DNA of 37,443 nucleotides from an uncultured Rhodothermales bacterium (GTDB taxonomy: Bacteria; Bacteroidota; Rhodothermia; Rhodothermales; UBA10348): NCBI GenBank assembly GCA_964512485.1, contig CAZEHJ010000031.1:1-37443 (forward strand). Direction: 5' to 3'. Below the pieces are notes generated by a model, which was not told the origin of the DNA, ran no database searches, and was given only the letters and a program-made list of their open reading frames with translations. Made by a program: the position numbers and the translations under genes. Below are positions 1 to 11,672 of the stretch, piece by piece (the stretch's first letter is position 1; each line of letters begins with the position of its first letter).

Positions 1-2
1 AA

Positions 3-2627
3 GGAGTGCTTGTAATCAGATTCGCCGATTTTGCGAAGCTGTCCCACTCCAAGTTTGTATCTATAGTTATTGCTTATGGGATCTGGAACACGCGCAACAA
101 GGCTGTTTGCCGGATTTCGCGTGTGAAGGAAAAACATGAAGGACACGCCCTTTCTCATGGCCGGAGTCACGACGGCTACGGCTTCAACTCTGGCGGTTGT
201 GAATTCAATGTGTCCGGCATCTACGAGCCGAGAGAAGGATGCATCGGCTGGTGTATCCGCAATGAATCCACTCTTCTGAACAGGTATGCGATCACTTTCC
301 GCAACGACGAGGTCACCTGATTCGATACCACGTTCAGCGGCATCATCAGGGTGAATCTCGACAAAGTTCGCCGGCCAACGATCCATGATCTGGGGTCGGC
401 GCAGCATATCATCGAATCCGGACTGCCAGATTTCACCAATCCGCCCGTTGGTAATCCACAGTTCACCCTCGCGGGGAGTCATGTATTCATAAAAGTCCGC
501 GAAATGCGACCATGGGCTCTTCATGAAGTTGGCTTTTCCACTCTGTGACTTGAATGCAGTCAGAATTTTGGAGTGAATAGTCGGGCCTTGAGGAGTATCC
601 AGATCCAGCGTCGAGTCGTGTAATCGCTTCGTACCTACCAGCTCTCCGTCGGCATATCGGACAGGTCCCTGAATTCCGGTAGTGCCGTAGGTCTTCAAGA
701 GATCATGACCTTTGATTCCGTCGCGTTTGGCCTTCCAGACGAGGGGGAAATAGTCCTTCCTCGAGCCGCGAGTGAAACGAGCGGCTTCTTCGAATACGTC
801 ATTCGAGTCTTCCCAGTCGAAGCCGGGGTAGCCCATTCGCTTGCCAACCTGGGCCGCGATCCACCAATCGGGTTTTGCTTCGCCTGGAGCATCATAGAAC
901 TTCGAATAGAGCCTGATTCTACGCTCGCCGTTGGCTCGGGCAAAGTCATCTTCGCCCCATGTGGCGGCAGGGAATATGATATCGGCATACGTGGAGCCCA
1001 ACGGCTCGCGCAGATATATATCCTGATTAACCACAACCATATCACCGGCATCAGCTCGTCGGATCAATTCTTCGGCAGCTGTTTCGGGGCTCGTGATCTG
1101 ATGTTCGCTGCCCCGAGTGAGGCCCAGGAAGGTCCTCATCAATCCCTGGGACGCCGTCATGCTTCCCAACCAGGTCGTTCCGACGGCCCAGGCAAAACGT
1201 ACGTTTCCGGATTCGATCCATCGATCCAGATCCAGGGGTTTGCGCCGACGTCCGGCGAATTTTTCAGGAGACTTCTCGAGAGGATATCGCCCGCCTTTGA
1301 TTCCACCGCGCTGATGGCCGCCGAAGCGAGAGATTACCTGTCCGGGCCGGTTTCCGGTTCCGCAGATGAGGGCCAAAGCTCCAATGGAGGCCGTATTCAG
1401 ATAGTTGTTGGACCAGTAATTTCCCTTTTCAATTCCGATGGATGTTTTAGGCCTGGACCCGTCAATTCGTGGTTTGGCCATGAGCTCAGCAGCACGAATG
1501 ATTCCTTCGCGGTCTACGCCCGTAATCCGTTCTGCGTTGTCAAGCGTGGCTTCTTCAACCGACAGCAGCCAGGACTTATAGTCGTCGAATCCTCGAGTCT
1601 GAAATGCGCCCCAGGTAGTTCGCCATTGCCAGGGTGTATTTCTGGTGCCTTGCCCGAATCCTGAATCCGATTCCCATTTATTGGATGTGTAGCGGTCGAT
1701 CCAGGCTCGATCTTCCCAGCCCTGTTCGATGATGTAGCGGGAGATGGCGAGGTGGAGTATGGTATCGGTTCCGGGAATGAGCCAGAGGTGCAGGCCGCCT
1801 GTTTTTTCTGCCCAGGCAACCCCCGTCGTTTTCCGTGGCACGATTGAAATTACTTTCATTCCTCGCCGGATGCCTTTCATGATCCACTCATTCCAGATCA
1901 CGGTTTTCGTCTCGAACGGATCGGTGCCCGACATGACCAACGTGTCCGCGAGTGACCAGTCCTCGTACGATGCGGCGAAATTGTCAAATCCTGTGTCCCG
2001 GAAGCCGGGCGTGTCCTCAGCGGTGGAGGGATTGTCATGGAAGGCGAACGCGGGAGTTTCGACGTGTCTCAATGCCAGTTTCGTGAGCGCGTACGTGTTT
2101 TCGAAGAACTGGTACGAATACATCTTCATCGCCCAGGAGTGCTCGCCGTACGTGTTGATCACGTGTTGGCCCACTTTTGCGACCGTGTCCAGAGCCAGGT
2201 CCCAGGATACCGGAACGAGTTCTCCATTGATGCGCATCAGAGGCGTCTTCAGGCGGTCTGCCGTCGCCGAGTCCGGGTTAAAGCATTTTTTGGCCAACGA
2301 GCCGCCACGAATACTGTGGTCGCCAAACAGATTAACCGCTTCAGCTTCAGCATCCGGAATAATCACCACATTGTGTGGAGATCCGTTGTGCGAGACCACG
2401 TTATGCTGATTTGGTCCCACCCAGAAACCCGTTCCGGGATCGCGTGGATAGTCGACGCCCATGGCGTTCTCACTCGCCGCCATGCCACCTTCGCTCCCAA
2501 CGGGCCAGCGGTAGACCTTGTAACCGCAACCCACGATGCAGTAGTCACACGCGGTAGTCAACACATCCGCGTCAGCTGGGGGCAGAGGTGTTCTTGAATT
2601 ATCAGGGGTCATGTTCTTGGTCGTCAT
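3..2627 (-). CDS. aioA: Mo-bisPGD catalytic (large) subunit of the arsenite oxidase AioA / iodate reductase IdrA clade; C-terminal ~10 codons lie beyond the window start (partial)
   Basis: Hand translation of the minus strand from ATG at 2625-2627 (4 nt after the Rieske gene stop) reads an open frame to the window edge. The ORF track omits it because there is no in-window stop. N-terminus is MTTKNMTPD...TACDYCIVGCGYKVYRW, carrying the Cx2Cx3C [3Fe-4S] motif characteristic of AioA. Later blocks (LHLWLIPGTDTILHLAISRYIIEQGWEDRAWIDRY, GERRIRLYSKFYDAPGEAKPDWWIAAQVG, C-terminal FMFFLHTRNPANSLVARVPDPISNNYRYKLGVGQLRKIGESDYKHS) are collinear with Alcaligenes/NT-26 AioA as I remember them. The plus-strand ORFs in this span (705..1664, 1744..2409, 2037..2597) are G/S/R-rich antisense artefacts. 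The symbol aioA is given at family level; the adjacent CCP genes make an IdrA (iodate reductase) identity at least as likely. Confidence 0.8.
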   Translation of the reverse strand, partial: MTTKNMTPDNSRTPLPPADADVLTTACDYCIVGCGYKVYRWPVGSEGGMAASENAMGVDYPRDPGTGFWVGPNQHNVVSHNGSPHNVVIIPDAEAEAVNLFGDHSIRGGSLAKKCFNPDSATADRLKTPLMRINGELVPVSWDLALDTVAKVGQHVINTYGEHSWAMKMYSYQFFENTYALTKLALRHVETPAFAFHDNPSTAEDTPGFRDTGFDNFAASYEDWSLADTLVMSGTDPFETKTVIWNEWIMKGIRRGMKVISIVPRKTTGVAWAEKTGGLHLWLIPGTDTILHLAISRYIIEQGWEDRAWIDRYTSNKWESDSGFGQGTRNTPWQWRTTWGAFQTRGFDDYKSWLLSVEEATLDNAERITGVDREGIIRAAELMAKPRIDGSRPKTSIGIEKGNYWSNNYLNTASIGALALICGTGNRPGQVISRFGGHQRGGIKGGRYPLEKSPEKFAGRRRKPLDLDRWIESGNVRFAWAVGTTWLGSMTASQGLMRTFLGLTRGSEHQITSPETAAEELIRRADAGDMVVVNQDIYLREPLGSTYADIIFPAATWGEDDFARANGERRIRLYSKFYDAPGEAKPDWWIAAQVGKRMGYPGFDWEDSNDVFEEAARFTRGSRKDYFPLVWKAKRDGIKGHDLLKTYGTTGIQGPVRYADGELVGTKRLHDSTLDLDTPQGPTIHSKILTAFKSQSGKANFMKSPWSHFADFYEYMTPREGELWITNGRIGEIWQSGFDDMLRRPQIMDRWPANFVEIHPDDAAERGIESGDLVVAESDRIPVQKSGFIADTPADASFSRLVDAGHIEFTTARVEAVAVVTPAMRKGVSFMFFLHTRNPANSLVARVPDPISNNYRYKLGVGQLRKIGESDYKHS

Positions 2628-2631
2628 ATAG

Positions 2632-3186
2632 TTACCCCGCCACATTCTGAGTTCGGCCAAAAATCAGGCCCATCATGGCGGTGGCATAGATCCAGTCGCC
2701 GTCGGTTTCGAGAACGACCTGGGGAAGGGATTCTGTTGCGTGTCCGGCGATCACCATTCCATGCCTGCGAAGATCGAAGGTGGTCAAATGGGAAGGACAT
2801 GGGCCGACGGCTGCGTGTTCGGCCTGATAGGCGCCGTGCAGTGGACCTCCCATGTGAGGGCATCGTGTGTGAAACGCTACAATGTCTTTCGCCGGTCCGA
2901 CGCCGCCGCCTGCTTCCGAATCCATCTGAACAAGAAAACAGGAAGAGTTTTCGTCTGGGTATTCGAAATAGATCGATTCGTGTCGTTTCAGATCAGAAAA
3001 TTTTGCGACGCGAACGCGATCATACGGGCTCACCCATGCGGGTATTTTCATTGCCTGCGCAACGCCCGGAATACCGGTCAACACGACCGTTATCGTCGCC
3101 GCACCCGATGTTTTCAGGAACGAGCGTCGACTGACACCGCCATCCAGAAGTGGACATGGCTCATTTGTTGATTGCGTATCCTTCAT
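2632..3186 (-). CDS. aioB: Rieske [2Fe-2S] small subunit with Tat signal (AioB/IdrB-type)
   Basis: 184-aa ORF. It carries a twin-arginine motif SRRSFLKTSGAA and Rieske boxes CPHMGGPL ... CPSH (CxH-x19-CxxH). It sits immediately upstream of the Mo subunit (4-nt gap), and its ATG overlaps the TGA of the upstream CCP gene (ATGA at 3183-3186). Confidence 0.8.
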   Translation of the reverse strand: MKDTQSTNEPCPLLDGGVSRRSFLKTSGAATITVVLTGIPGVAQAMKIPAWVSPYDRVRVAKFSDLKRHESIYFEYPDENSSCFLVQMDSEAGGGVGPAKDIVAFHTRCPHMGGPLHGAYQAEHAAVGPCPSHLTTFDLRRHGMVIAGHATESLPQVVLETDGDWIYATAMMGLIFGRTQNVAG

Positions 3187-4373
3187 TTCGACCCCATCGT
3201 GTCATCGATCGATCCATACTCTGGAAGAATGGGTCGTTCCGTTTTGATTTCTTCTCCTGACGTGCTTTCCAGGAACGCGACCAGTTGGCGCTGTTCGGTA
3301 GCTGTCAACCCAAGCGGTCTGATCAGATCCGTTTTGGTCCCGAAATCAAAATTGACCATGATCTGATCGTCGCGGCCTCCATCGTTGTAAAATTCGACCA
3401 CCTCCTCAAGCGTGTAGAATGCACCGTTATGCATGTACGGTGCGGTATACAACAGATAGCGCAGCATCGGCGTCCTGAATTTGCCCATGTCCACCGTCCG
3501 CTTGGTCACGTAATAGAGACCGAGGTCGGTTTTGACGGTCCGGTAGATCTCCTCCGTCACCCCCTTGGCGTATTGCTCATACCTGAACGTGATCTGCCTT
3601 AACTGATCGGTTTCGAAGGCAGGATTTTCGGGCACTCCGAGATTGTAGTATTTCTCATCGGTCAGCAGGGGACCGTCGTGGCACTGAATACATTTGCCTT
3701 TACCCGTGAAAATTTCCATTCCCGCGATGGCATCGTTTGACAGAGCAGTCAGGTCACCGCGCAAGTACCGGTCATATGGGGTATCCGTCTGAATAAGGGT
3801 TCGCTCGTACGCTGCTATTGCCCGCCAGGCATCCTCCAGATCTGGCCAGGGTGTTCCGAATACTTCGCGGAACATGGCTACGTACTGAGGAACCTGCCGC
3901 AGTCGCTCTTCCATCATGTCCCGTTCGCCATTACCTGCTACGGCACCCGAAGCGGCCGAAACCGCCTGAGCTTCCAGACTCTTTGAGGCCCCATCCCAGA
4001 ACAATTTGGCGAAATACGCCGAATTGATGATGGTCTGGCAATTCCGCCAGTGGGCCGTTCCGTTGTACCCACGGCACAGATCTGCTCCGTCCGTCCAACC
4101 AAATTCGTCACTGTGACAGTCGGCGCAGCTGATCGAGGCGTCACCAGAAAGCCGGTTGTCGTAAAAAAGGACTTTTCCGAGCTGTACTTTTGGATCGTCG
4201 AGTTGCGGATAGCCCAGTTCATCAACAGCTTGAGAGTTGTCTGAAGGTATGGACGGAGGTCCGAGAGGCGTCAGTTCGCGAAACGCCGGCCCGTTCGCCA
4301 GTCCGGTGATCAGGACAATTACAATCAGGGCCGGCAGGAGAGGTAGAAAGGGGACATTGCTGAATCGTTTCAT
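3183..4373 (-). CDS. dihaem cytochrome c peroxidase (CCP/MauG) family protein, long type (A1); IdrP-like
   Basis: 396 aa with signal peptide. It has two CxxCH motifs (CADCH, CIQCH) and CCP-family blocks LGKVLFYDNRLSGDASISCADCHS, FRTPMLRYLLYTAPYMHNG and LVAFLESTSGE, matching Pseudomonas CCP blocks from memory. The ATG is verified. Confidence 0.8.
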   Translation of the reverse strand: MKRFSNVPFLPLLPALIVIVLITGLANGPAFRELTPLGPPSIPSDNSQAVDELGYPQLDDPKVQLGKVLFYDNRLSGDASISCADCHSDEFGWTDGADLCRGYNGTAHWRNCQTIINSAYFAKLFWDGASKSLEAQAVSAASGAVAGNGERDMMEERLRQVPQYVAMFREVFGTPWPDLEDAWRAIAAYERTLIQTDTPYDRYLRGDLTALSNDAIAGMEIFTGKGKCIQCHDGPLLTDEKYYNLGVPENPAFETDQLRQITFRYEQYAKGVTEEIYRTVKTDLGLYYVTKRTVDMGKFRTPMLRYLLYTAPYMHNGAFYTLEEVVEFYNDGGRDDQIMVNFDFGTKTDLIRPLGLTATEQRQLVAFLESTSGEEIKTERPILPEYGSIDDTMGSK

Positions 4374-4374
4374 A

Positions 4375-5400
4375 TCAGTTTCGGGCCTCCCGCCAGTTTT
4401 TCATCGCCTGATAAGGCGGTGGCTCCGGAATTTTCACTTCGGGTAGCGCCCCGGACAGGCTTTCCAGGAACGCCACCAGATCATCTAGCTCCGTATCGCT
4501 CAAATCCAGACCATCTCCACGATTATTGTAAAATAAAACCACTTCCTGCAGCGTGGAAAACACGCCATTATGCATGTAGGGACCTGTATCGGCAACCTGA
4601 CGCAGCCCGGGGGTGATGAAGGCCCCCACATCGTCGTAATTCTTGGTTACGATGAACCGGCCGACGTCGCGTCGGGTTTGCATGTATCCCGGAACACCCA
4701 TGTTCTTGATGAACGCGCGATAGGTTGCATGTCGAAGTGGCTCTTCGAATACAGCCACATTTTCCGGTACGCCCGTGTTGTGGGCCATGCCATCGGTGAA
4801 ATCGCTGTCTGAGTGACAGCTGGAGCATGCTGCTTTACCTTCGAAGAGCTGTCGTCCTCGTTCGCCACTTTCGCTCATCGTTCCAAGGTCGTACGGGGAG
4901 TCGCCCGTTGTAAGCGTATTCTGGAAGGCAGCGATAGCTTTGAGTGTGCCACCGAACGATGGCTCAGACCCCAGCGCGTCTTGATACATCTGAACGTACT
5001 CGGGCACCTGTTTCATGCGCTCAAGCAGCAATCGACCGTCGAGATTCAAGAAGTGTGTTTCGGTGATGCCATCCCGAACCAGAGTTTCCACATCCGAGCC
5101 CACAAGTCGGCCGTCCCAGTAGAACGACGCATTGCGACTCACATTCAGCAGCGACTTGGCATTTCGGAACCCATCCGAACCCGGATAGGCTTCCGATAGC
5201 GCTTCACCGTCCGTCCAGGCAAACTCTGGACTGTGACAGGTGGAGCAGCTCATGCTTCCGTCACCGGATAGTCGGGGGTCAAAAAACAGGTAGCGCCCGA
5301 GATCGATCAACGCCTCATTATTGTCTTCTTCAGACTGAGGGTTGACAAAACCGTTGAGCAGCAGGAGAGCGACCGGCAGGAAGATGACGACCGCAAACAA
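4375..5400 (-). CDS. dihaem cytochrome c peroxidase (CCP/MauG) family protein, short type (B1); IdrP-like
   Basis: 341 aa with CSTCHS and CSSCHS motifs and blocks LGRYLFFDPRLSGDGSMSC, ITPGLRQVADTGPYMHNG and LVAFLESLSG. Its stop (4375-4377) is 1 nt from the A1 ATG (TGATATG junction). The start codon at 5398-5400 is TTG, with no in-frame ATG near the N-terminus. The N-terminus is hydrophobic and signal-like. Confidence 0.75.
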   Translation of the reverse strand: MFAVVIFLPVALLLLNGFVNPQSEEDNNEALIDLGRYLFFDPRLSGDGSMSCSTCHSPEFAWTDGEALSEAYPGSDGFRNAKSLLNVSRNASFYWDGRLVGSDVETLVRDGITETHFLNLDGRLLLERMKQVPEYVQMYQDALGSEPSFGGTLKAIAAFQNTLTTGDSPYDLGTMSESGERGRQLFEGKAACSSCHSDSDFTDGMAHNTGVPENVAVFEEPLRHATYRAFIKNMGVPGYMQTRRDVGRFIVTKNYDDVGAFITPGLRQVADTGPYMHNGVFSTLQEVVLFYNNRGDGLDLSDTELDDLVAFLESLSGALPEVKIPEPPPYQAMKNWREARN

Positions 5401-5642
5401 TCGGGGAGTTTTTGAGCACGCTCTGATGGTATTCTCCGGATAAGTTCAGGAATACACATCACGCTCTACAGACTTGAAATGGAGCCGGGTAGGGACTTCC
5501 AAGACGTGACTCGCCTTTCAGAGTTACACGCGCGGAATAAGTTAAATCTCAAGAAAGCAGGGCAATTTTGCAACCGACTTTCGGAGGATTCAGACGGCAG
5601 GGAAACCCCTATTTGCACATCCCTCCAAAAAAGCCCCAATGC

Positions 5643-6848
5643 CTAATTACCACTATTTGCGGGGGTAGCAAAGACGTCATATTCGGGAAGAACCGGACGC
5701 TCGATTTTGATCTCTTCTCCACTCGTACTCTCAAGGAAAGCAACCAGTTGACGTTTTTCCTCATCCGTCAAGCCAAGAGGCTTCAGAAGATCCGAGCGGG
5801 TACTGCTACCGGCCAGCGCTTCGAAATCGTTGGTTCCACCACCATCATTGTAGAAATCAACTACTTCTTCCAATGTGAAAAAAGAACCGTTATGCATGTA
5901 TGGCATTGAGTATTTCAGGTAACGCAGCGGCGCGGTTCTGAATTTCCCCATGTCTTCGGGCTGCTTCGTTCCCAGATACAGTCCGAGGTCGGATTTTACA
6001 ACATCATATATCTCAGGCGGAACGCCTCGACCAAATTGCTGGAAGCGAAACGTGATCTGAATGAGCGGATCAGTGGCAAGCTTCGAATTGTCAGGTACAC
6101 CAACATTGTGGAATTGCTGGTCGGACAGCAGTGGACCGGTGTGACACTGAATACAGGCAGCCTTTCCAAGAAAAAGGCCCATTCCTGCCTTGGCGTCGTC
6201 CGTGAGTGCCGTCTGGTCTCCTCGCATGAAACGATCGAAGGGAGTATCCGGCTGAATAATGGTTCGTTCAAATGCCGAAATCGCCCGCCAGATGTCGTCT
6301 CCTTCCGGCCATTCCGTCCCGAACACTTTCTCGAATCGGTCGACGTATTCAGGAATCTGACGTAGTCTTTCCTCCATCATATCCGGATGGCCGTGTCCTT
6401 CTACTGCGCTTGTGGCAGCGCCTTTCGCCTGGTCTTCCAGTCGGTCGGATCGTCCATCCCAGAAAAGTTGGTCCTGATACGCGGAATTGACCACGGTCGG
6501 ACAATTTCGCCAGTTACCTGTCCCCTGATAGGCCAGACACAGATCCTGTCCGTCACTGAAGCCGAACTCGTCGCTGTGACAATCCGCACAACTGACGGAC
6601 GCATCTCCTGAAAGACGGTTTTCGAAGTAGAGCATTTTGCCGAGCTCAACCTTCGGATCGTCCGAAAGGGGGAATCCGTTTTCGTCTACAGATTGAGGAT
6701 TGTCCGACGGAATCGGGGGGGCTCCAAGAGCCGCAAGAGAAGGCGCCTCCTGCTTCACGGCGCTTACCGAAATCGTAGCAGCGGCGATGACAAAGAGTGC
6801 AAGCACCAAAAACAGTGGGGCGAAAGGAATACGTAGAAGGGCTCTCAT
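5643..6848 (-). CDS. dihaem cytochrome c peroxidase (CCP/MauG) family protein, long type (A2), paralogue of 3183..4373
   Basis: 401 aa with signal peptide. It carries CADCHSDEFGFSDG and CIQCHTGPLL motifs and blocks MGKFRTAPLRYLKYSMPYMHNG and QLVAFLESTSGEEIKIERPVLPEY, nearly identical to A1 blocks. The ATG is verified. Confidence 0.8.
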   Translation of the reverse strand: MRALLRIPFAPLFLVLALFVIAAATISVSAVKQEAPSLAALGAPPIPSDNPQSVDENGFPLSDDPKVELGKMLYFENRLSGDASVSCADCHSDEFGFSDGQDLCLAYQGTGNWRNCPTVVNSAYQDQLFWDGRSDRLEDQAKGAATSAVEGHGHPDMMEERLRQIPEYVDRFEKVFGTEWPEGDDIWRAISAFERTIIQPDTPFDRFMRGDQTALTDDAKAGMGLFLGKAACIQCHTGPLLSDQQFHNVGVPDNSKLATDPLIQITFRFQQFGRGVPPEIYDVVKSDLGLYLGTKQPEDMGKFRTAPLRYLKYSMPYMHNGSFFTLEEVVDFYNDGGGTNDFEALAGSSTRSDLLKPLGLTDEEKRQLVAFLESTSGEEIKIERPVLPEYDVFATPANSGN

Positions 6849-6849
6849 A

Positions 6850-7884
6850 TCAGTTGCTCACCTCTGCCCAGTTTTGACTTACTTCGTATGGGGGCATTTC
6901 CGGCTCTTCAATGTGTGGAATCGTCCCGGAAAGACTCTCCAGAAACGCGATCAGATCAGACGATTCTTCAAGGCTCAAATCCATTCCACCGTCACTGTAG
7001 AAGGCAACTACGTCATCGAGCGTATCAAATATTCCGTTGTGCATGTAGGGCGCGGTGTCCGCGACCTGTCGCAGATCTGGAGTGATGAACGCAGCCCTGT
7101 GCCGCTCGTCTCCCGTTTGGGCCAAATGTCCCGGATCCTCGCGAAGGGACATGTGATCGGGCACGTTGTGATCTTTCAGGTAGAGCCGAAACGCCGTGTG
7201 CCGTAACGGATCGGCGGTGATGTCCGGGTTTTCCGGGACTCTCATGGCATGGGGCAGTCCATCGGTGTATCCCTCGCCGCTGTGACACGAAGCACAATTG
7301 GATTCGAAAACTGCAGATCCGCGCTGTGCAGTTTCACCCATAGGAGTGCTGCCTTGGGTGGTAAGCGTATTCTGAAAGGCTTCCAGAGCCCGGATGGCTC
7401 CTTCATATGAAGGAATTTCAGCCAATGATTGTTCGAAGAGATCCACGTACGCTGGGATCTGCTTCAAACGCTCGGTCAACAGTCTGTCGTTAAGATTCAG
7501 GAACAGTTTGCCGCCGATCATCTCGGCCGTGACGTTGGCCACGGACGCACCTGCAGGGCCGCCATCCCAGTAATAATTAGATCGTTGAGATACATTCAGG
7601 AGCGATTTCGAATTTCTGAAGCCGTCTGCTGCCGGATAGGTTTGAGAGAGCGCCGTGCCGTCAGCCCACGCATGATCTGGGTCATGACACGTGGCACAAC
7701 TGATGCTCGCATCTCCGGAAAGCCGATTGTCGAAAAATAGATACGTTCCCAATTCGACGAGCGCATCCTGATCAACCTGCGGCTGAGGGGTACATCCGTC
7801 CAGTAATAGTGTAAAGAAGGGAACGAGAAGCAATGTCGGGGCAATTCCAAGTCCCGAACGAACGCTAATCGATGGTAAACTCAA
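6850..7884 (-). CDS. dihaem cytochrome c peroxidase (CCP/MauG) family protein, short type (B2), paralogue of 4375..5400
   Basis: 344 aa with CATCHDPDHAWADG and CASCHSGEGYTDG motifs and blocks ITPDLRQVADTAPYMHNG and LIAFLESLSG. The same TGATATG stop/start junction with A2 occurs at 6846-6852. The start at 7882-7884 is TTG, and it overlaps the upstream gene stop by 20 nt. Confidence 0.7.
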   Translation of the reverse strand: MSLPSISVRSGLGIAPTLLLVPFFTLLLDGCTPQPQVDQDALVELGTYLFFDNRLSGDASISCATCHDPDHAWADGTALSQTYPAADGFRNSKSLLNVSQRSNYYWDGGPAGASVANVTAEMIGGKLFLNLNDRLLTERLKQIPAYVDLFEQSLAEIPSYEGAIRALEAFQNTLTTQGSTPMGETAQRGSAVFESNCASCHSGEGYTDGLPHAMRVPENPDITADPLRHTAFRLYLKDHNVPDHMSLREDPGHLAQTGDERHRAAFITPDLRQVADTAPYMHNGIFDTLDDVVAFYSDGGMDLSLEESSDLIAFLESLSGTIPHIEEPEMPPYEVSQNWAEVSN

Positions 7885-8611
7885 AGTTTGACTCTGCGGA
7901 TGATTGGCTGGTTACGGTTACCGTCTGGGTTTGAATTCCAAGTTTTGGGTGCCATACGGATACTTCATAGGTACCCGGAGGGACATCGGAAAGTTGAAAG
8001 TTGCCTGTTTCATCCACCACTGTGGCGTAAGGATTGTCACTGGCAAAAATCCATCCCTGCATGAAATCGTGTGAATCACATTCAAGACTTACGAGGTGAC
8101 TACGCGCAGGATGCAGTACTTGTGGTACGGGGCCGAGATCGGGCTGGCTGATGTTGAAAAGAGAGCGGCGGGCTCGTCCGATCAATTCATATCCATGGAT
8201 ATTGTGCAGGGTCGAATCACTGTTGATGATGTCCATTTCCGAGGCACGGCGCATCACCTGGATGTTGGGCGTGAACGCACACACTTCCTGATTGACAAAC
8301 TCTCCCGGGGCTGCCATATCCCACGATTTTCCCTCGGAGATGTCCTCTATAAACACCACGACGCGTCGAAGGGCTCCGTCGTCTGCAACATCGTATTCCG
8401 TTCTTTCTCTGTAGCCGAGTCCACAGATTTCGGCATCTTTCGTGATCAGAAGTCGAAGAGGGGCCGGAGCATCGCCACCGAACATGACTCGTCCTTCGAT
8501 CGAGCCCCCGTTAGCGACCTCGATTTCTGTGTATTCCTGCGCGAAAGCCGACTGGTCGGACGGAGCAGCCAGGAAAAGAGCGATTGCGAGAATGAGTGAG
8601 GATTTTTTCAT
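7865..8611 (-). CDS. periplasmic cupredoxin-like (type-1 Cu motif) protein with CarbPepD_reg-like beta-sandwich C-terminus
   Basis: I take the start at the internal ATG (8609-8611) that gives the signal peptide MKKSSLILAIALFLAAPSDQSAFA; the ORF track's upstream extension has no sensible N-terminus. This ATG lies 1 nt after the stop of the upstream propeller gene. It contains ...LHNIHG...(about 40 aa)...SLECDSHDFMQGW, i.e. H-x~40-C-x2-H-x2-M. The CxxHxFMxG block resembles the amicyanin Cu-site loop CTPHPFMRG. The C-terminal GTYEVSVWHPKLGIQTQTVTVTS is a CarbPepD_reg-like strand pattern. Confidence 0.55.
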   Translation of the reverse strand: MKKSSLILAIALFLAAPSDQSAFAQEYTEIEVANGGSIEGRVMFGGDAPAPLRLLITKDAEICGLGYRERTEYDVADDGALRRVVVFIEDISEGKSWDMAAPGEFVNQEVCAFTPNIQVMRRASEMDIINSDSTLHNIHGYELIGRARRSLFNISQPDLGPVPQVLHPARSHLVSLECDSHDFMQGWIFASDNPYATVVDETGNFQLSDVPPGTYEVSVWHPKLGIQTQTVTVTSQSSAESNFEFTID

Positions 8612-8612
8612 G

Positions 8613-10034
8613 TTAGTGGCGGATAACTGCTGCTCCCATTCCGGAAGCATATTCCTCTGTTTCGATAACCTTGATGATCTCCTGAGACTCAATATCAATG
8701 ACGAGCACCGTCCCGATATTTGCGTTGTCTCCCAGGTCATACCTCGGATGGTAGACGTGATTTTCCTTGCTGTGTCCTTCAGGCATCGCAAGGTTTCTGT
8801 TTGCAATGTAGACAAATCGGCCATCCGGAGATGCTGCGCTACCATGAGGTTGAGCCAGACCGTTGACCCCCTCGATCACTTTGGCAACTTCACGCTTCTC
8901 CATGTCCAGAATGGTGATCTGATTTGTCCAGTTGTTTCCGAAATACACCCACTTTCCGTCGGCTGTATAAATCGGGTGCCATGGCGCACGACCCACACCG
9001 ATGGTGTCCGTCAATACGACACCTTCAGTCGAGGCCAGGTCGAAAATAAAAGCATTGGAGGTCACTTCAGACGTGCCCACCATGGTCGAACCATCCGGCG
9101 AAATGGTGAATTGGATGAACACGTGCGGCCGATCTCCTTCGATGTCATCAAAAACCAGATCTCCACCCTCGTCGCGATAGGTGGCCACTCGATTCTGAGC
9201 CAGGCTGGAGATGTACACCTCGGATCCATCGTGATTGGTAAGAAGCGCGTGAGGGCGCTGCATCAGCACACCGATTTCCTCCGCTTCCATCGTCTCGCGA
9301 TCAACTTGAACGACGCTTTCTGGCGGAGAAACTGACATCATCGAACGGCCTGCATACAGCCATGGACCGGCTGGGTCCAACGCCAGAAGACCCGGACGAA
9401 CGGCATCGACCTGACCGACCAGATTATTGTCACGATCAAATTTCAGAATCTTGTCGTCCATGATGAGCGACAGATACCAGAACGAACCATCCTGTTCGAC
9501 GGCGATGTGATGCGGCATTGAGAACTCATTGAAACCCAATTCAACGAGATCCACCATACGCACGACCTGATTGGTGTTCATGTCGATGACGGCAACCATA
9601 CCGGCTCCCTGATTGGCGACATACAAGCGAGGGTCATCTGGATCGCTGAACGGAATTTCACCGTCCGATGCTGGAGCACCCTCATCAATCCACGCGGAGA
9701 TGGTTGCGATCTCCTCTTCGGTGAGTGCATCCGATCCCAACTCTTCTGGATGGGATCCCTCCCGATACTTCGTCGCGAGTTCGACGAGAAGGCTGTTATC
9801 GGCATCGTATGCGATAACAGCTTCACCGAAGTCTGAGCCCTGAAAGAGATTCTCCCATGAGTCCAGTCTCAGACCTGAGGCGGCTTCCGGGCCTGCATGG
9901 CACGAGACGCATTTGTTCTGAAAAATAGAATCAACCTCGCTCCAATCTGCCTGTACAGGCTGACGATCAAGCGACCATCCGGCCATCAACAGGATGACCG
10001 ACGCTAGTACAATGGTCTGTCGCAATGAAATCAT
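8613..10034 (-). CDS. PSCyt1-type cytochrome c domain fused to YVTN/cytochrome-d1-like beta-propeller
   Basis: Start is chosen at ATG 10032-10034, giving signal peptide MISLRQTIVLASVILLMAGWSL...VQA. The ORF-track GTG at 10094 would add 20 unlikely residues. The N-terminus IFQNKCVSCHAGPEAASGLRLDSWENL...LTEEEIATISAWIDEGA fits the planctomycete-type cytochrome c (PSCyt1) pattern. The remainder has repeated LYVANQGAGMVAVIDMNTNQVV-type YVTN propeller blades. Confidence 0.7.
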   Translation of the reverse strand: MISLRQTIVLASVILLMAGWSLDRQPVQADWSEVDSIFQNKCVSCHAGPEAASGLRLDSWENLFQGSDFGEAVIAYDADNSLLVELATKYREGSHPEELGSDALTEEEIATISAWIDEGAPASDGEIPFSDPDDPRLYVANQGAGMVAVIDMNTNQVVRMVDLVELGFNEFSMPHHIAVEQDGSFWYLSLIMDDKILKFDRDNNLVGQVDAVRPGLLALDPAGPWLYAGRSMMSVSPPESVVQVDRETMEAEEIGVLMQRPHALLTNHDGSEVYISSLAQNRVATYRDEGGDLVFDDIEGDRPHVFIQFTISPDGSTMVGTSEVTSNAFIFDLASTEGVVLTDTIGVGRAPWHPIYTADGKWVYFGNNWTNQITILDMEKREVAKVIEGVNGLAQPHGSAASPDGRFVYIANRNLAMPEGHSKENHVYHPRYDLGDNANIGTVLVIDIESQEIIKVIETEEYASGMGAAVIRH

Positions 10035-10259
10035 GAAATTAAATGAAAATGGTCCTGTCCAGACGAATATCTGACGACGATAGACGGGTAGCACTAGTTA
10101 CAGTTTCAATTCGACAGAAAATGTGGGATAAACCCTACCCTATCGCCCCGTTGCGTGTCACTTTGATTGACTACGAGACAAACTCCGTGCCTGGGGCGAA
10201 TCCGCCTCTGAAACGTGATTTAGGTTCCCGGCAGTGTTTCAAATTGAGTACAGCGGTGT

Positions 10260-11672
10260 TCAATTCAATCCAACTGAACTCGAATTGGCACCGAAGACTG
10301 TGTCGATCTCGATTCCGCAGTCATTCAGAAAGCCCGTTGGCAAAGTCCCACCGGCAAATATGAACACAAAATCATTCGAAATCGACAGTTCAGTGCCGTC
10401 TTCACCTTCCAAAGTGACATCCCCGTCAGAAATATCAGTCACGTTGGTCTGGAGCATCAGCTGAACTCTTCCATTTTGAACGGCTTCGTCTAAACGGGCT
10501 GAATTGTCCGGCTTGATCCGTGAAAATGAATCCCTACGGTAGGAGAGATGAACCCCAGTGTTCGCTTCACCACACAGGCTTAACGCGGCCTCGACCGCTG
10601 AGTCGCCGCCTCCGACAACCAGAATTCGGTCCCCGGAGAAGTGCGATGGGTCTTTGAGCGAATAAAAAACGTTGGGTCGGTTTTCGCCGGATACTCCAAT
10701 TTTTCGCGGGATCCCCCTGCGACCGATCGCCAGAACCACATTTTGTGCCCGATATGAATTGGTCGAAGAGGTAATCTCGAAATACTCCGCACCCACTTTT
10801 TGGACTGAGTGAATCATCTCGTGAACCTGAACCTGAAGGCCACATTCTTCAACAACACCCGTCCACAATTGCAATAATTCTTCCTTCAGATATTCCCTTG
10901 ACGTCATGGAGGTTGCGTCGGTAAGTCTCATGGGCTCAGTCATCACCAGCTTTTTTCGAGGGTAATTGAGGACCGTGCCTCCGATATCATCTTTTTCAAT
11001 TACCAGATAGTTCAGGCCCTTTCGATGTGCTTCGAGAGCAGCCGCGAGACCAGCGGGTCCACATCCAACGATCAGGAGGTCGAGAATCTCTGAATTCAGC
11101 TCGGGTGTTATCTGTTCAACACACTGTCGACCTTGTTCGAATGCGTTGCGGATCAATCCCATCCCGCCAAGTTCGCCGACAACGAAAAGTCCGGGCACAT
11201 TCGTTTCGAAGTTTTCCTTGATGCGGGGAAGGTCTACTCCTCGTTTGGAAGTTCCGAACACGAGCTGAATAGCATCGACCGGACATGAACGCTCGCACAA
11301 TCCGTGGCCAATACACCGAGCTGGAGAAACCGGTATGGCCTGCCCCGAAATCAGTCCGAGAACATTTTTTTCAGGACAGACGCTCACACAATTCCCGGTG
11401 CCAATGCACTGATCCGGGTTGACGACGGGATGGAGGGATGCTGGCCGATACAGCCCGAGTTCCAGAGATTCTGCCTGAGCATCGATTACTGCGCGTTCCT
11501 GCCGGACCATGCGCACGACGTACGGCAGGACGAAAATCGCCGCCAGCACAAAGAATATCAGCCATATCAAAAGTGTCGAACTCAGAAGCTGATGCCATAG
11601 TTGATGAAAAAAGTAGAGGATGTTACGCTCGAACTCAGGTGGGCGCGTTGCCTGATGGACAGGTATCCCCAC
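10260..11672 (-). CDS. membrane-anchored 2x[4Fe-4S] ferredoxin domain fused to TrxR-like FAD/NAD(P)-binding oxidoreductase (ferredoxin-NAD(P)+ reductase-like)
   Basis: Two CxxCxxCxxxCP motifs are present (CIGTGNCVSVCP, CIGHGLCERSCP). Dinucleotide folds LIVGCGPAGLAAALEA (FAD) and ILVVGGGDSAVEAA (NAD(P)H) are present, with no CxxC redox disulfide. There is an N-terminal TM helix LLSSTLLIWLIFFVLAAIFVLPYVV. The start is uncertain: the ORF-track start is GTG at 11672 and overlaps the upstream OM-protein gene by 90 nt. A TTG (codon 35) just after that gene's stop, or the ATG at 11510, are alternatives. The TM helix lies between the OMP stop and ATG 11510, arguing for an upstream start. Confidence 0.65.
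   Translation of the reverse strand: MGIPVHQATRPPEFERNILYFFHQLWHQLLSSTLLIWLIFFVLAAIFVLPYVVRMVRQERAVIDAQAESLELGLYRPASLHPVVNPDQCIGTGNCVSVCPEKNVLGLISGQAIPVSPARCIGHGLCERSCPVDAIQLVFGTSKRGVDLPRIKENFETNVPGLFVVGELGGMGLIRNAFEQGRQCVEQITPELNSEILDLLIVGCGPAGLAAALEAHRKGLNYLVIEKDDIGGTVLNYPRKKLVMTEPMRLTDATSMTSREYLKEELLQLWTGVVEECGLQVQVHEMIHSVQKVGAEYFEITSSTNSYRAQNVVLAIGRRGIPRKIGVSGENRPNVFYSLKDPSHFSGDRILVVGGGDSAVEAALSLCGEANTGVHLSYRRDSFSRIKPDNSARLDEAVQNGRVQLMLQTNVTDISDGDVTLEGEDGTELSISNDFVFIFAGGTLPTGFLNDCGIEIDTVFGANSSSVGLN

What the first reader, a model, noticed from the sequence alone, without database searches (positions are those of the whole stretch)
8060..8206. Amicyanin-like type-1 copper motif (H..C-x2-H-x-F-M-x-G) hidden in the small periplasmic protein upstream of the CCP genes
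The 248-aa secreted protein reads ...STLHNIHGYEL...(about 40 aa)...HLVSLECDSHDFMQGWIF. The block CDSHDFMQG has the same C-x2-H-x2-M spacing and flanking F/G as the copper-site loop of amicyanin (CTPHPFMRG). A His lies about 40 residues upstream, as in cupredoxins. AioB-type Rieske proteins use azurin-type cupredoxins as physiological acceptors in some organisms (EC 1.20.9.1, arsenate reductase (azurin)). A blue-copper carrier in this array would be functionally coherent. The rest of the protein looks like a CarbPepD_reg-like beta-sandwich, so this would be an unusual fusion.
Basis: partly seen in the sequence, partly recalled or inferred. Interest (0 to 1): 0.6.

Follow-up and report, generated by a model that had tools for sequence, protein, structure and literature searches.

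The report
Nested blue-copper electron-carrier protein
A small secreted protein beside peroxidase and arsenite-oxidase/iodate-reductase-type genes very probably carries an amicyanin-like blue-copper site, built on a cupredoxin domain inserted inside a second beta-sandwich, and it belongs to a large, essentially unannotated family of probable periplasmic electron carriers.

Summary
Window 8060-8206 (-) encodes H136 to M184 of a 248-aa Sec-secreted protein (7865-8611, -), with HNIH...C-x2-H-x2-M.

The bare motif is not significant: one is found and about one is expected in the six-frame window. Three other results make it real:
- The four ligand positions are essentially invariant in 247 homologues.
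- Family profiles match amicyanin and other type-1 copper proteins, ligand for ligand.

Pfam and NCBIfam miss the domain. The cupredoxin (residues 58-192) is nested inside a split transthyretin-like (CarboxypepD_reg) sandwich; it is not fused end to end.

The gene lies in a tight operon: cytochrome c/beta-propeller, this gene, four bacterial cytochrome c peroxidases, a TAT-Rieske subunit, and an AioA/IdrA-like molybdoenzyme cut off by the window edge. This matches the idrP2P1BA iodate-reductase layout with a duplicated peroxidase pair.

Relatives occur in at least 288 species across many phyla. They sit beside peroxidases, the cytochrome c/propeller gene, or bd-like-oxidase clusters. Natural fusions join them to a peroxidase, c-type cytochromes or a plastocyanin-type domain.

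Best reading: a periplasmic one-electron copper carrier for these enzymes. It is a new variant of a known kind. Copper binding itself is untested.

The parts
7865..8611 (-). Gene for the 248-aa nested cupredoxin/transthyretin-like protein (stop codon 7865-7867).
   Evidence: ORF. Start at MKKSS is supported by homologue lengths of 243-261 aa. The start lies 1 nt after the stop of the upstream gene.
8540..8611 (-). Sec signal peptide, residues 1-24 (MKK / hydrophobic core / AFA|QE).
   Evidence: Read directly from the sequence. There is no Cys, so it is not a lipoprotein. The model has low pLDDT for residues 1-21. No signal-peptide predictor was run.
8441..8509 (-). First two strands (about residues 35-57) of the split transthyretin-like/CarboxypepD_reg sandwich.
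8036..8440 (-). Inserted module, residues 58-192: an N-terminal extension (helix 60-63, two strands) plus an eight-strand cupredoxin domain (about 105-191). It contains the near-invariant pair C63 (8423-8425) and C111 (8279-8281), a probable disulfide.
8060..8206 (-). Type-1 copper ligand set: H136 (HN motif), C178, H181, M184 (C-x2-H-x2-M, the amicyanin-length loop).
   Evidence: Cys lies at the end of strand E173-177. His and Met lie in the loop before strand E185-191. H136 lies at the start of E136-144. This is the canonical cupredoxin topology.
7868..8035 (-). C-terminal part (residues 193-248) of the transthyretin-like/CarboxypepD_reg sandwich, with the family signature PPGTY...WH.
   Evidence: PF13620 scores 34.1 bits against a cutoff of 32.3, and PF14686 scores 36.5 bits.
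8613..10094 (-). Upstream partner gene: cytochrome c (PSCyt1, CxxCH) joined to a YVTN/lactonase-type beta-propeller.
   Evidence: Pfam and NCBIfam/PDB. It is adjacent to the target in 24 of 80 related loci. A 710-aa natural fusion with the target exists (P0101, 58% identical to this gene).
6850..7884 (-). Di-haem bacterial cytochrome c peroxidase-like gene 1 (about 340-aa type).
   Evidence: PF03150 at 5e-30. It is closer to bacterial CCPs (1.7e-25) than to MauG (1.3e-13). It is 50% identical to the gene at 4375-5400.
5643..6848 (-). Di-haem bacterial cytochrome c peroxidase-like gene 2 (about 400-aa type).
   Evidence: PF03150 at 7.7e-47. Bacterial CCPs score 3.5e-47 against MauG at 2e-17. 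It is 60% identical to the gene at 3183-4373.
4375..5400 (-). Di-haem peroxidase-like gene 3 (idrP2-position type).
   Evidence: This type directly follows the target in the beta-proteobacterial, Methylomirabilota and Magnetococcales loci.
3183..4373 (-). Di-haem peroxidase-like gene 4 (idrP1-position type).
2632..3186 (-). TAT-exported Rieske [2Fe-2S] small subunit (AioB/IdrB type).
   Evidence: PF00355 plus TAT_signal. TIGR02694 scores 116.6 bits against a cutoff of 95.65.
1..2627 (-). AioA/IdrA-like molybdopterin large subunit. About 875 of 887 residues are present; the gene runs off the window start.
   Evidence: tblastn: 82% identity over 875 aa to the 895-aa ORF of L010. TIGR02693 scores 444.7 bits against a cutoff of 359. 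PDB AioA/AroA at 1.9e-86. An identical 887-aa protein is P0259.

Best explanation
The gene encodes a Sec-exported periplasmic blue-copper (type-1) protein.

Architecture. An amicyanin-like cupredoxin domain (residues about 105-191, preceded by a short extension) is inserted between strands 2 and 3 of a transthyretin-like (CarboxypepD_reg) beta-sandwich.

Copper site. One copper ion is held by H136, C178, H181 and M184, using the shortest known ligand loop (C-x2-H-x2-M).

Function. The protein cycles Cu(II)/Cu(I) and acts as a one-electron carrier or docked 'wire' in the periplasm.
- In this operon it most likely passes electrons to the di-haem cytochrome c peroxidases encoded immediately downstream, and/or to the Rieske subunit of the AioAB/IdrAB-type molybdoenzyme.
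- It would receive electrons from the cytochrome c/beta-propeller protein encoded 1 nt upstream. In other genomes the source would be a membrane bd-like oxidase/cytochrome c-EB_dh complex.
- If the molybdoenzyme works as an arsenite oxidase, the direction at the Rieske subunit is reversed.
- The transthyretin-like domain probably serves as a docking or scaffold module.

Status of each step.
- Predicted computationally from the sequences: fold, nesting, ligand conservation, synteny, fusions.
- Inferred: copper binding, redox role, partners, direction.
For: Copper site:
- Ligands are essentially invariant in 247 sequences, and the second-sphere HN and N-x-D motifs are conserved.
- The family profile hits solved type-1 copper proteins: 5fc9 at 6e-6, the 9cck C-terminal cupredoxin at 9e-6, amicyanin at 1e-4. 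The only pseudoazurin entry hit is the variant engineered with the amicyanin loop, 2ux6.
- hhalign pairs H136/C178/H181/M184 with amicyanin H53/C92/H95/M98.

Fold:
- AF2 model with pLDDT 90.8 and pTM 0.86.
- Foldseek top hits are amicyanin, pseudoazurin and plastocyanin.
- The splice test supports nesting.

Redox role:
- Tight operon with a cytochrome c/propeller gene, four CCPs, a Rieske subunit and a Mo subunit.
- In 80 related loci from many phyla, 71 have a haem, Mo or bd-like partner within 6 kb. A CCP is adjacent in 32, the cytochrome c/propeller in 24, and a HEAT/bd-like cluster gene in 28.
- Natural fusions exist: target+CCP (P0126), di-haem cytochrome c+target (P0157), cytochrome c/propeller+target (P0101), target+PF00127 (P0171), cytochrome c'-like+target (P0099).
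- The CCPs resemble bacterial CCPs rather than MauG.
- A nested relative (23% identity, C-x2-H-x2-M) sits directly after idrA in L089, and a different cupredoxin fusion sits there in L090.

Precedent (my own knowledge): azurin accepts electrons from A. faecalis arsenite oxidase (EC 1.20.9.1); pseudoazurin and azurin donate electrons to bacterial CCPs.

Literature: cupredoxin-like proteins were noted, uncharacterised, in NXR/bd-like clusters (PMC3578206; PMC11791136).
Against: - No experiment exists. Copper binding is inferred only.
Convergence of the four residues rests on register with solved structures.
- Curated models (Pfam, NCBIfam) do not recognise the domain.
- The partner is ambiguous. 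Published idr clusters in model strains contain only idrP2P1BA with cytochrome c as the presumed donor. Of six idr-like loci sampled from the Mo-subunit side, only one had a relative of this family.
- Some relatives lie in uninformative neighbourhoods (L005/L006).
- The role of the transthyretin-like domain and of the conserved C63/C111, H139 and H221 is unexplained.
- Fusion proteins from metagenomes could in part be gene-calling read-throughs.
Confidence: 0.72

Rival explanations
1. It is a copper-trafficking or copper-resistance protein (like CopI, CupA or the EfeO cupredoxin domain), not an electron carrier. The site would bind and hand over copper, for example to mature other cuproproteins.
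Against: The ligand set and spacing are those of electron-transfer type-1 sites and are invariant. No cop, cus or P-type ATPase genes lie beside the gene in the window. The recurrent neighbours and fusion partners are haem and Mo redox enzymes.
Confidence: 0.07
2. It is the protein substrate or partner of the adjacent di-haem enzymes acting like MauG or MbnH. These enzymes would post-translationally oxidise a residue of this protein (as MbnH does to MbnP), creating or completing its metal site.
For: Gene adjacency to CCP/MauG-superfamily genes across phyla, and a target-CCP fusion. The best NCBIfam names for the four enzymes are MbnH and MauG families, but all score below cutoff. Conserved aromatic residues (W/F183, W187, W220) lie near the site.
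Against: The enzymes are much closer to true bacterial CCPs than to MauG: 3.5e-47 against 2e-17, with MbnH 6e1c in between at 6.6e-38. The same peroxidase pair exists in published idr clusters that are described without this gene. A complete canonical His/Cys/His/Met set needs no modification.
Confidence: 0.07
3. It is a permanently bound subunit of a larger complex (bd-like oxidase/cytochrome c-EB_dh, or the IdrAB-peroxidase complex), held there by its transthyretin-like domain. It would be a fixed internal redox centre, not a diffusible shuttle.
Against: Nothing tested here excludes it. It is a variant of the main explanation, not a contradiction. The gene occurs with several alternative partner sets, which suits a shared carrier.
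Confidence: 0.12
4. It is a chance motif in a non-metal beta-sandwich protein, such as a structural or adhesin-like CarboxypepD_reg protein.
For: One C-x2-H-x2-M is expected by chance in the window. Databases name the family 'carboxypeptidase regulatory-like domain-containing protein' or 'hypothetical protein'.
Against: Near-absolute conservation of all four residues over sequences down to about 25-30% identity. Significant profile and fold matches to copper proteins in ligand register.
Confidence: 0.02

Closest known systems
Amicyanin (Paracoccus MauC; PDB 1AAC)
   Same: Cupredoxin fold. The N-terminal ligand lies in an H-N-x-H motif. The C-x2-H-x2-M loop has identical length with F before Met and G two residues after. 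All four ligands align. Both are periplasmic. Both are encoded next to a MauG/CCP-superfamily di-haem gene and a beta-propeller protein gene.
   Different: About 15% identity. Amicyanin is a free-standing 105-aa domain, whereas here the domain is nested in a transthyretin-like sandwich. There are no methylamine dehydrogenase genes. The di-haem neighbours are peroxidase-like, not MauG-like.
Archaeal N-D-D-x3-H-type cupredoxins: Nmar_1307 purple cupredoxin (5FC9) and the C-terminal cupredoxin of the Nitrosopumilus multicopper protein (9CCK)
   Same: These are the best sequence-profile matches (E about 6e-6 to 9e-6). They share the N-x-D-x3-H and C-x2-H-x2-(M) signatures. 9CCK also shows a cupredoxin used as an appended electron-entry domain.
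   Different: 5FC9 lacks the axial Met (Arg at that position in the alignment). Neither is nested in a second domain.
Azurin as redox partner of arsenite oxidase AioAB (EC 1.20.9.1), and the iodate reductase IdrABP1P2 system
   Same: The same enzyme family is encoded in the operon: a Rieske subunit passing TIGR02694 and a large subunit passing TIGR02693. The peroxidase-peroxidase-Rieske-Mo order equals the published idrP2P1BA order (PMC10989891).
   Different: Azurin is a different cupredoxin class (C-x4-H-x3-M; my own knowledge) and is not encoded with aio genes. The idr papers read here name cytochrome c as donor and do not mention a copper protein. The link of this protein to the Mo enzyme is by synteny only.
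Pseudoazurin/azurin as electron donors to bacterial di-haem cytochrome c peroxidases (Paracoccus, Pseudomonas)
   Same: A small periplasmic type-1 copper protein paired with bacterial CCP-type enzymes. Here the pairing is genomic: adjacent in 32 of 80 loci, plus one natural fusion.
   Different: In the model organisms the donor genes are not linked to the peroxidase gene and have no extra domain (my own knowledge). Electron transfer was not tested here.
'Cupredoxin-like copper-binding proteins' noted in the NXR/bd-like-oxidase gene clusters of Nitrospina, Nitrospira and Kuenenia (Lucker et al. 2013, PMC3578206)
   Same: The same kind of neighbourhood (bd-like oxidase subunit I, cytochrome c with an EB_dh domain) surrounds many relatives, including a Nitrospinota MAG (L021).
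   Different: Whether those proteins belong to this sequence family was not tested. They remain uncharacterised in the papers read.
Transthyretin-like/CarboxypepD_reg domain (e.g. human carboxypeptidase D, 5AQ0)
   Different: Here the domain is discontinuous, split by a 135-residue insert.

Membership tests
Type-1 (blue) copper cupredoxins, amicyanin-like loop class | Greek-key eight-strand cupredoxin beta-sandwich. | tested here: met
Type-1 (blue) copper cupredoxins, amicyanin-like loop class | Ligand set: an upstream His, then Cys-Xn-His-Xm-Met in the loop between the last two strands (n=2, m=2 for the amicyanin class). | tested here: met
   H136, C178-x2-H181-x2-M184. All four align with amicyanin H53/C92/H95/M98. 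Conserved in 246/247, 242/242, 239/240 and 236/240 sequences. Placement relative to the strands is canonical.
Type-1 (blue) copper cupredoxins, amicyanin-like loop class | The four ligand side chains converge on one site in three dimensions. | tested here: inconclusive
   Model coordinates are not returned by the tools. Convergence is inferred from low-rmsd superposition on copper proteins combined with ligand-register sequence alignment.
Type-1 (blue) copper cupredoxins, amicyanin-like loop class | Recognised by curated family models (Pfam PF00127 Copper-bind or PF13473 Cupredoxin_1). | tested here: not met
   No hit for this protein at E<=10, nor for the isolated insert at E<=1. Only 1 of 35 relatives hits PF00127, at E=0.009. 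This is a detection criterion, not a biochemical one. A more distant nested relative (L089) and the extra domain of P0171 do hit PF00127.
Type-1 (blue) copper cupredoxins, amicyanin-like loop class | Binds one Cu, with an intense ~600 nm band, narrow EPR hyperfine splitting and a reversible high-potential redox couple. | not testable with these tools
   This needs purified protein.
CarboxypepD_reg/transthyretin-like domain (PF13620) | Score above the Pfam gathering threshold, and a seven-strand sandwich. | tested here: met
CarboxypepD_reg/transthyretin-like domain (PF13620) | A single contiguous domain. | tested here: not met
   The native match covers only profile positions 29-80. The first two strands lie 135 residues upstream.
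Iodate reductase gene cluster (idrP2-idrP1-idrB-idrA) | Two di-haem peroxidase genes directly followed by an AioB-like Rieske gene and an AioA-like Mo subunit gene. The published criterion separating Idr from Aio is the adjacent peroxidases (PMC8692401). | tested here: met
   Window genes 4375-5400, 3183-4373, 2632-3186 and 1-2627, all on the minus strand and tightly spaced. This applies to the neighbouring genes, not to the copper protein.
Iodate reductase gene cluster (idrP2-idrP1-idrB-idrA) | IdrA-clade membership (published HMM score threshold) and iodate-reducing activity. | not testable with these tools
   The published HMM was not available. NCBIfam offers only the arsenite-oxidase model, which the protein passes.
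Iodate reductase gene cluster (idrP2-idrP1-idrB-idrA) | The copper protein is a core member of the cluster. | tested here: not met
   The published core is four genes; in Azoarcus DN11 regulator genes lie upstream. Of six idr-like loci sampled from the Mo-subunit side, one carries a relative (L089), and L091 is truncated upstream so it could not be scored. From the target side, 16 of 80 loci have IdrA-like within 6 kb.
MauG/MbnH-type protein-modifying di-haem systems (the target as their substrate) | The neighbouring di-haem enzymes belong to the MauG/MbnH branch, not the peroxidase branch. | tested here: not met
   PDB searches give bacterial CCPs at 1.7e-25 and 3.5e-47, against MauG at 1.3e-13 and 2e-17. 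NCBIfam MauG/MbnH scores are far below cutoff.

The most novel reading that the evidence does not exclude
These nested cupredoxin/transthyretin-like proteins are a previously unrecognised, widespread class of dedicated periplasmic copper electron carriers: more than 1000 clusters at 50% identity, in at least 288 species. They would wire bd-like 'oxidase'/cytochrome c-EB_dh membrane complexes to periplasmic enzymes: di-haem peroxidases, IdrAB/AioAB-type molybdoenzymes and perhaps NXR. In organisms like this Rhodothermales-type bacterium they would be the missing physiological electron donor of the iodate-reductase/peroxidase module. The transthyretin-like domain would act as a specific docking adaptor.
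Probability: 0.3. Interest if true: 0.65.

Novelty: new variant of a known kind. Interest (0 to 1): 0.5.

Why it matters
- **Annotation.** Blue-copper carriers are textbook proteins. This family is invisible to Pfam and NCBIfam and is named 'carboxypeptidase regulatory-like' or 'hypothetical' in databases, so metabolic reconstructions miss a redox carrier in hundreds of species.
- **Testable donor.** The family's genomic company includes iodate-reductase-type clusters, paired di-haem peroxidases and the enigmatic bd-like oxidases first noted in nitrite oxidisers and anammox bacteria. This offers a concrete, testable electron donor or connector for systems whose electron supply is still assumed, not shown.
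- **Protein architecture.** A cupredoxin inserted inside a transthyretin-like sandwich is an unusual, well-defined case of domain nesting. It could explain how a small carrier gains partner specificity.

Tried and rejected
**Searches that found nothing or failed**
- Single-sequence Pfam, NCBIfam and PDB searches of the protein found no copper family. The isolated insert also hits no Pfam model.
- The search for related loci with the 35-sequence alignment failed for lack of a conserved stretch. A 13-sequence alignment worked.
- The afdb50 fold library was unavailable.
- No paper that describes idr genes mentions a cupredoxin. No paper mentions a carboxypeptidase-regulatory/cupredoxin architecture. 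The supplements of the ISME idr paper mention no such gene.

**Readings considered and rejected**
- CuA site: there is only one Cys in the loop.
- Red-copper/nitrosocyanin site: the upstream ligand is His, not Glu.
- H139 as a ligand: it aligns with the non-ligand His56 of amicyanin.
- A MauG/MbnH-type relationship: the neighbouring enzymes are peroxidase-like.

**Other checks**
- The 242-nt gap between peroxidase genes 2 and 3 contains no promoter-like or terminator-like site.
- P0196, an ankyrin-repeat protein, was a false positive of the insert search and was excluded.
Full report
**1. Is the observation there?**

The minus-strand ORF 7865..8845 most plausibly starts at MKKSS (8611). This gives 248 aa, in line with homologues of 243-261 aa. 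The start lies one nucleotide after the stop of the upstream gene.

Codon arithmetic puts H136 at 8206-8204 and M184 at 8062-8060. The finding's coordinates therefore delimit exactly H136-N-I-H139 ... C178-D-S-H181-D-F-M184.

The N-terminus (MKK, hydrophobic stretch, AFA|QE) reads as a Sec signal peptide without a lipobox. This is direct reading; no predictor was run.

The bare motif C-x2-H-x2-M occurs once in the six-frame translation of the window, and 1.07 occurrences are expected from composition. Taken alone the motif proves nothing.

**2. Is it a real copper site?**

Single-sequence searches fail:
- Pfam sees only a C-terminal CarboxypepD_reg/fn3_3 piece (residues 193-244) and no copper family even at E<=10.
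- NCBIfam sees nothing.
- phmmer against PDB sequences gives nothing significant.

Homologues are abundant: 100 were listed, a few of them named 'plastocyanin' by JGI. In a 35-sequence alignment, H136, C178 and H181 are invariant, and M184 and H139 are at least 90% conserved.

In 247 sequences pooled from two searches:

| Position | Conservation |
|---|---|
| H136 | 246/247 |
| C178 | 242/242 (non-gap) |
| H181 | 239/240 |
| M184 | 236/240 (exceptions: three Gln, one Thr) |
| D132 | 247/247 |
| N137 | 226/247 |

Gln is a known natural axial ligand of type-1 sites, as in stellacyanin (my own knowledge).

A profile of the family hits solved copper proteins:
- The Nitrosopumilus cupredoxin 5FC9 (E=6e-6).
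- The C-terminal cupredoxin of 9CCK (E=9e-6).
- Many amicyanin entries (from E=1e-4).
- 2UX6, the variant carrying the amicyanin ligand loop and the only pseudoazurin entry hit.

Profile-profile alignment with amicyanin gives 89.6% probability (E=1.9e-6). It pairs H136/C178/H181/M184 with the copper ligands H53/C92/H95/M98. Its numbering agrees with the PDB mutant names returned.

**3. Fold and architecture**

The AlphaFold2 model built on the alignment is confident: pLDDT 90.8, pTM 0.86.
- Foldseek against the PDB returns amicyanin, pseudoazurin, plastocyanin, Cupredoxin_1 and 5FC9 as top hits.

The C-terminal piece has only 56 residues, so the transthyretin-like sandwich must also use the N-terminal strands E36-44 and E52-55. 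A splice test agrees. Joining residues 30-57 to 193-248 extends the PF13620 match from profile positions 29-80 to 2-80 and raises the score from 34.1 to 39.1 bits. The excised insert (58-192) hits no Pfam family.

The protein is therefore a cupredoxin nested between strands 2 and 3 of a transthyretin-like domain.

In the model, Cys178 ends strand 173-177, His181 and Met184 lie in the loop before strand 185-191, and His136 starts strand 136-144. This is the canonical arrangement.

I could not read the coordinates. Spatial convergence of the four residues is inferred, not measured.

C63 and C111 are near-invariant and probably form a disulfide tying the N-terminal extension to the cupredoxin. 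H139 and H221 are conserved and unexplained.

**4. Genomic setting in the window**

All genes below are on the minus strand and tightly spaced:

| Coordinates | Gene |
|---|---|
| 15958-16578 | TPR protein |
| 14251-15951 | Multihaem cytochrome |
| 13161-14261 | Multihaem cytochrome |
| 11582-13177 | 531-aa protein without family |
| 10260-11672 | FAD/4Fe-4S oxidoreductase |
| 8613-10094 | Cytochrome c/YVTN beta-propeller protein |
| 7865-8611 | The copper protein |
| 6850-7884 | Di-haem peroxidase gene 1 |
| 5643-6848 | Di-haem peroxidase gene 2 |
| 4375-5400 | Di-haem peroxidase gene 3 |
| 3183-4373 | Di-haem peroxidase gene 4 |
| 2632-3186 | TAT-Rieske protein |

The Rieske protein passes TIGR02694, 'arsenate reductase (azurin) small subunit'.

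The ORF lister omits genes that run off the window. tblastn shows that 3..2627 (-) encodes 875 residues that are 82% identical to an 895-aa ORF in a related locus. That protein:
- passes TIGR02693 at 444.7 bits against a cutoff of 359;
- is most similar in the PDB to AioA/AroA, at 1.9e-86;
- is identical to an 887-aa database protein.

The four peroxidases form two paralogous pairs, at 50% and 60% identity. They are closer to bacterial cytochrome c peroxidases than to MauG.

The order peroxidase-peroxidase-Rieske-Mo subunit equals the published idrP2-idrP1-idrB-idrA arrangement. Adjacent peroxidases are the published criterion that separates iodate reductase from arsenite oxidase (PMC8692401; PMC10989891).

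**5. Related loci**

A scan of one genome per species found 288 genomes encoding close relatives. They span Rhodothermales, Gemmatimonadota/Longimicrobiales, Beta-, Gamma- and Alphaproteobacteria, Methylomirabilota, Rokubacteria, Nitrospinota, Magnetococcales, KSB1 and Acidimicrobiia. The nearest are Rhodothermales/Bacteroidota MAGs.

In the 80 loci kept, three recurrent arrangements appear:
- **Rhodothermales/Gemmatimonadota:** cytochrome c/propeller, then target (often with paralogues). This is followed either by two peroxidases alone, or by peroxidases plus Rieske plus Mo subunit, or by a bd-like oxidase plus cytochrome c-EB_dh.
- **Betaproteobacteria, Methylomirabilota and Magnetococcales:** cytochrome c-EB_dh, Usp-PCP_red, radical-SAM/SPASM, HemY-like, then target-peroxidase-peroxidase-Rieske-Mo subunit. 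The Mo subunit was verified in L055.
- **Gammaproteobacteria, including tubeworm symbionts:** bd-like oxidase and cytochrome c-EB_dh lie divergent from HEAT-repeat protein, target, Usp-PCP_red, radical SAM and HemY-like.

Counts across the 80 loci:

| Neighbour | Loci |
|---|---|
| Peroxidase adjacent | 32 |
| Cytochrome c/propeller adjacent | 24 |
| HEAT-repeat protein adjacent | 28 |
| At least one haem, Mo or bd-like partner within 6 kb | 71 |

In relatives L001/L007/L008/L011 the module cytochrome c/propeller-target-peroxidase-peroxidase exists without Rieske or Mo genes. In the window this module is followed by a complete idr-type set. The window therefore joins two modules.

**6. Family size and fusions**

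phmmer with the insert alone, against 1.84 billion representatives, finds 1153 clusters at E<=1e-3 and 116 at E<=1e-10. Almost all are 220-290 aa with the insert at about residues 55-195, so the nested architecture is the rule.

Longer hits are natural fusions:
- P0101: cytochrome c/propeller + target.
- P0126: target + CCP_MauG.
- P0157: di-haem cytochrome c + target.
- P0171: target + a PF00127 plastocyanin/azurin domain.
- P0099: cytochrome c'-like + target.
- P0188: tandem target.

Some could be gene-calling read-throughs. Together they point to haem and copper redox partners.

**7. The view from the molybdoenzyme side**

Six idr-like loci were sampled from homologues of the large subunit:

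| Locus | What lies beside the idr-like genes |
|---|---|
| L089 | A nested relative directly after the Mo subunit (211 aa, 23% identity, C-x2-H-x2-M, weak PF00127 hit) |
| L090 | A cytochrome c-Cupredoxin_1/COX2 fusion |
| L092 | Small c-type cytochromes |
| L091 | A HEAT-repeat protein (locus truncated upstream) |
| L093 | A HEAT-repeat protein |
| L094 | bd-like oxidase, cytochrome c-EB_dh and Usp-PCP_red directly after the Mo subunit |

The target is thus one of several alternative carriers linked to these clusters, not a universal fifth idr gene.

This agrees with the literature. The idr core is four genes, and the donor is assumed to be a c-type cytochrome. None of the idr papers read mentions a copper protein.

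Lucker et al. noted uncharacterised 'cupredoxin-like copper-binding proteins' beside bd-like oxidases in the NXR clusters of Nitrospina, Nitrospira and Kuenenia. They speculated about copper-based carriers there (PMC3578206; see also PMC11791136). Whether those proteins belong to this sequence family was not tested.

**8. How it most likely works**

- **Predicted computationally from the sequences:** the secreted 248-aa protein, the nested cupredoxin, invariant type-1 ligands with the amicyanin loop length, and operonic and phylogenetically recurrent linkage and fusion to periplasmic haem and Mo redox proteins.
- **Inferred:** it binds one copper and cycles Cu(II)/Cu(I) at a high potential. 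It delivers single electrons to the di-haem peroxidases, as pseudoazurin and azurin do for bacterial CCPs (my own knowledge), and/or to the Rieske subunit of the Idr/Aio-type enzyme. Azurin is the classical partner of arsenite oxidase, EC 1.20.9.1 (my own knowledge). It is recharged by the cytochrome c/propeller protein or, elsewhere, by bd-like/cytochrome c-EB_dh complexes.
- **Direction:** the direction at the Rieske subunit depends on whether the enzyme reduces iodate or oxidises arsenite.

**9. Rivals**

- Being a MauG/MbnH-type substrate.
- Being a fixed subunit, not a shuttle.
- Pure chance.

The ligand chemistry, the neighbours and the peroxidase-like nature of the di-haem enzymes argue against the first two. 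The third is a variant of the main model. The fourth is excluded by conservation and profile/fold evidence.

**10. Novelty and score**

A type-1 cupredoxin is a known kind. Three things are new:
- the nested architecture;
- the size and near-complete lack of annotation of the family, with names such as 'carboxypeptidase regulatory-like domain-containing protein' or 'hypothetical protein';
- the family's systematic association with idr-type, peroxidase and bd-like-oxidase clusters.

I rate it a new variant of a known kind, with interest 0.5. It is a solid, correct catch and a useful experimental handle, but it is not a new principle.

Noticed in passing
window 1-2627 (-), with 2632-3186 and 3183-7884: An AioA/IdrA-like molybdopterin large subunit runs off the window start and is invisible to the ORF lister. 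With the TAT-Rieske gene and four di-haem peroxidase genes it forms an idrP2P1BA-type (iodate-reductase-like) cluster whose peroxidase pair is duplicated (50% and 60% identity between paralogues). By the published criterion this Rhodothermales-like organism would be a candidate iodate reducer, a lineage not listed in the idr papers read.
   Followed up: partly
window 11582-15951 (-): A 531-aa protein has no Pfam or NCBIfam match. It has a signal-peptide-like N-terminus and a C-terminal Phe, so it may be an outer-membrane barrel. It sits directly after two multihaem c-type cytochromes (MtrC/c7/c3-like). This looks like a porin-cytochrome module. The block from 288-aa ORF 16575-17441 and TPR gene 15958-16578 down to FAD/4Fe-4S gene 10260-11672 is missing between the sulfatase and cytochrome c/propeller genes in the syntenic Rhodothermales locus L001/L008.
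   Followed up: partly
window 8613-10094 (-); P0101: The cytochrome c (PSCyt1)/YVTN beta-propeller protein has unknown function. Its only matches are weak, far-below-cutoff similarities to hydrazine synthase beta, lactonase-type NosZ and surface-layer propellers. It is adjacent to the copper protein in 24 of 80 loci and is fused to it in one 710-aa protein. A beta-propeller plus amicyanin-like cupredoxin plus MauG-superfamily genes echoes the methylamine dehydrogenase system, but no quinoprotein small subunit is present.
   Followed up: partly
L036, L040, L048, L049, L059, L062, L069-L077, L085 (Gammaproteobacteria); L027, L034, L037, L039, L042, L053, L055, L058 (Beta and others); L094: A recurrent, apparently undescribed supercluster: bd-like oxidase subunit I homologue, di-haem cytochrome c fused to an EB_dh domain, Usp-PCP_red protein, radical-SAM/SPASM-PCP_red protein, HemY-like flavoprotein, a long HEAT-repeat protein and often a sensor kinase. 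It is frequently physically joined to idr-type clusters. In L094 the bd-like genes directly follow the Mo subunit.
   Followed up: partly
L090 and L092 (idr-like loci from Planctomycetaceae and an unnamed metagenome): Giant proteins combining multicopper-oxidase domains with a CCP_MauG domain (L090) or preceding the peroxidase pair (L092). SCO1/SenC genes lie nearby. L090 also has a cytochrome c-Cupredoxin_1/COX2 fusion after the Mo subunit. Copper proteins of different architectures keep turning up around this enzyme family.
   Followed up: no
P0092, P0097 (alignment A1): Two relatives have C-x2-H-x2-Q in place of Met (a stellacyanin-like axial Gln) and an insertion in the upstream His motif (HTFDVH). 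This is natural axial-ligand variation within the family.
   Followed up: no
window residues C63 (8423-8425), C111 (8279-8281), H139 (8195-8197), H221 (7949-7951): Near-invariant residues outside the copper ligand set. The Cys pair (232/236 and 241/246) probably forms a disulfide. H139 (223/247) and H221 (200/224, in the transthyretin-like domain) have no assigned role. They could mark a domain interface, an electron path or a second metal site.
   Followed up: no
window 6850-7884 (-), N-terminus: The first peroxidase has an LLLDGC sequence after its hydrophobic N-terminus, which is lipobox-like. It may be a lipoprotein, unlike its paralogue at 4375-5400 (LLLNGF).
   Followed up: no
L014, L016, L019, L020, L022, L024-L026, L028, L031, L032, L051, L088: Gemmatimonadota/Longimicrobiales and some other genomes carry two or three paralogues of the copper protein around the cytochrome c/propeller gene. 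These are sometimes divergent and sometimes tandem.
   Followed up: no
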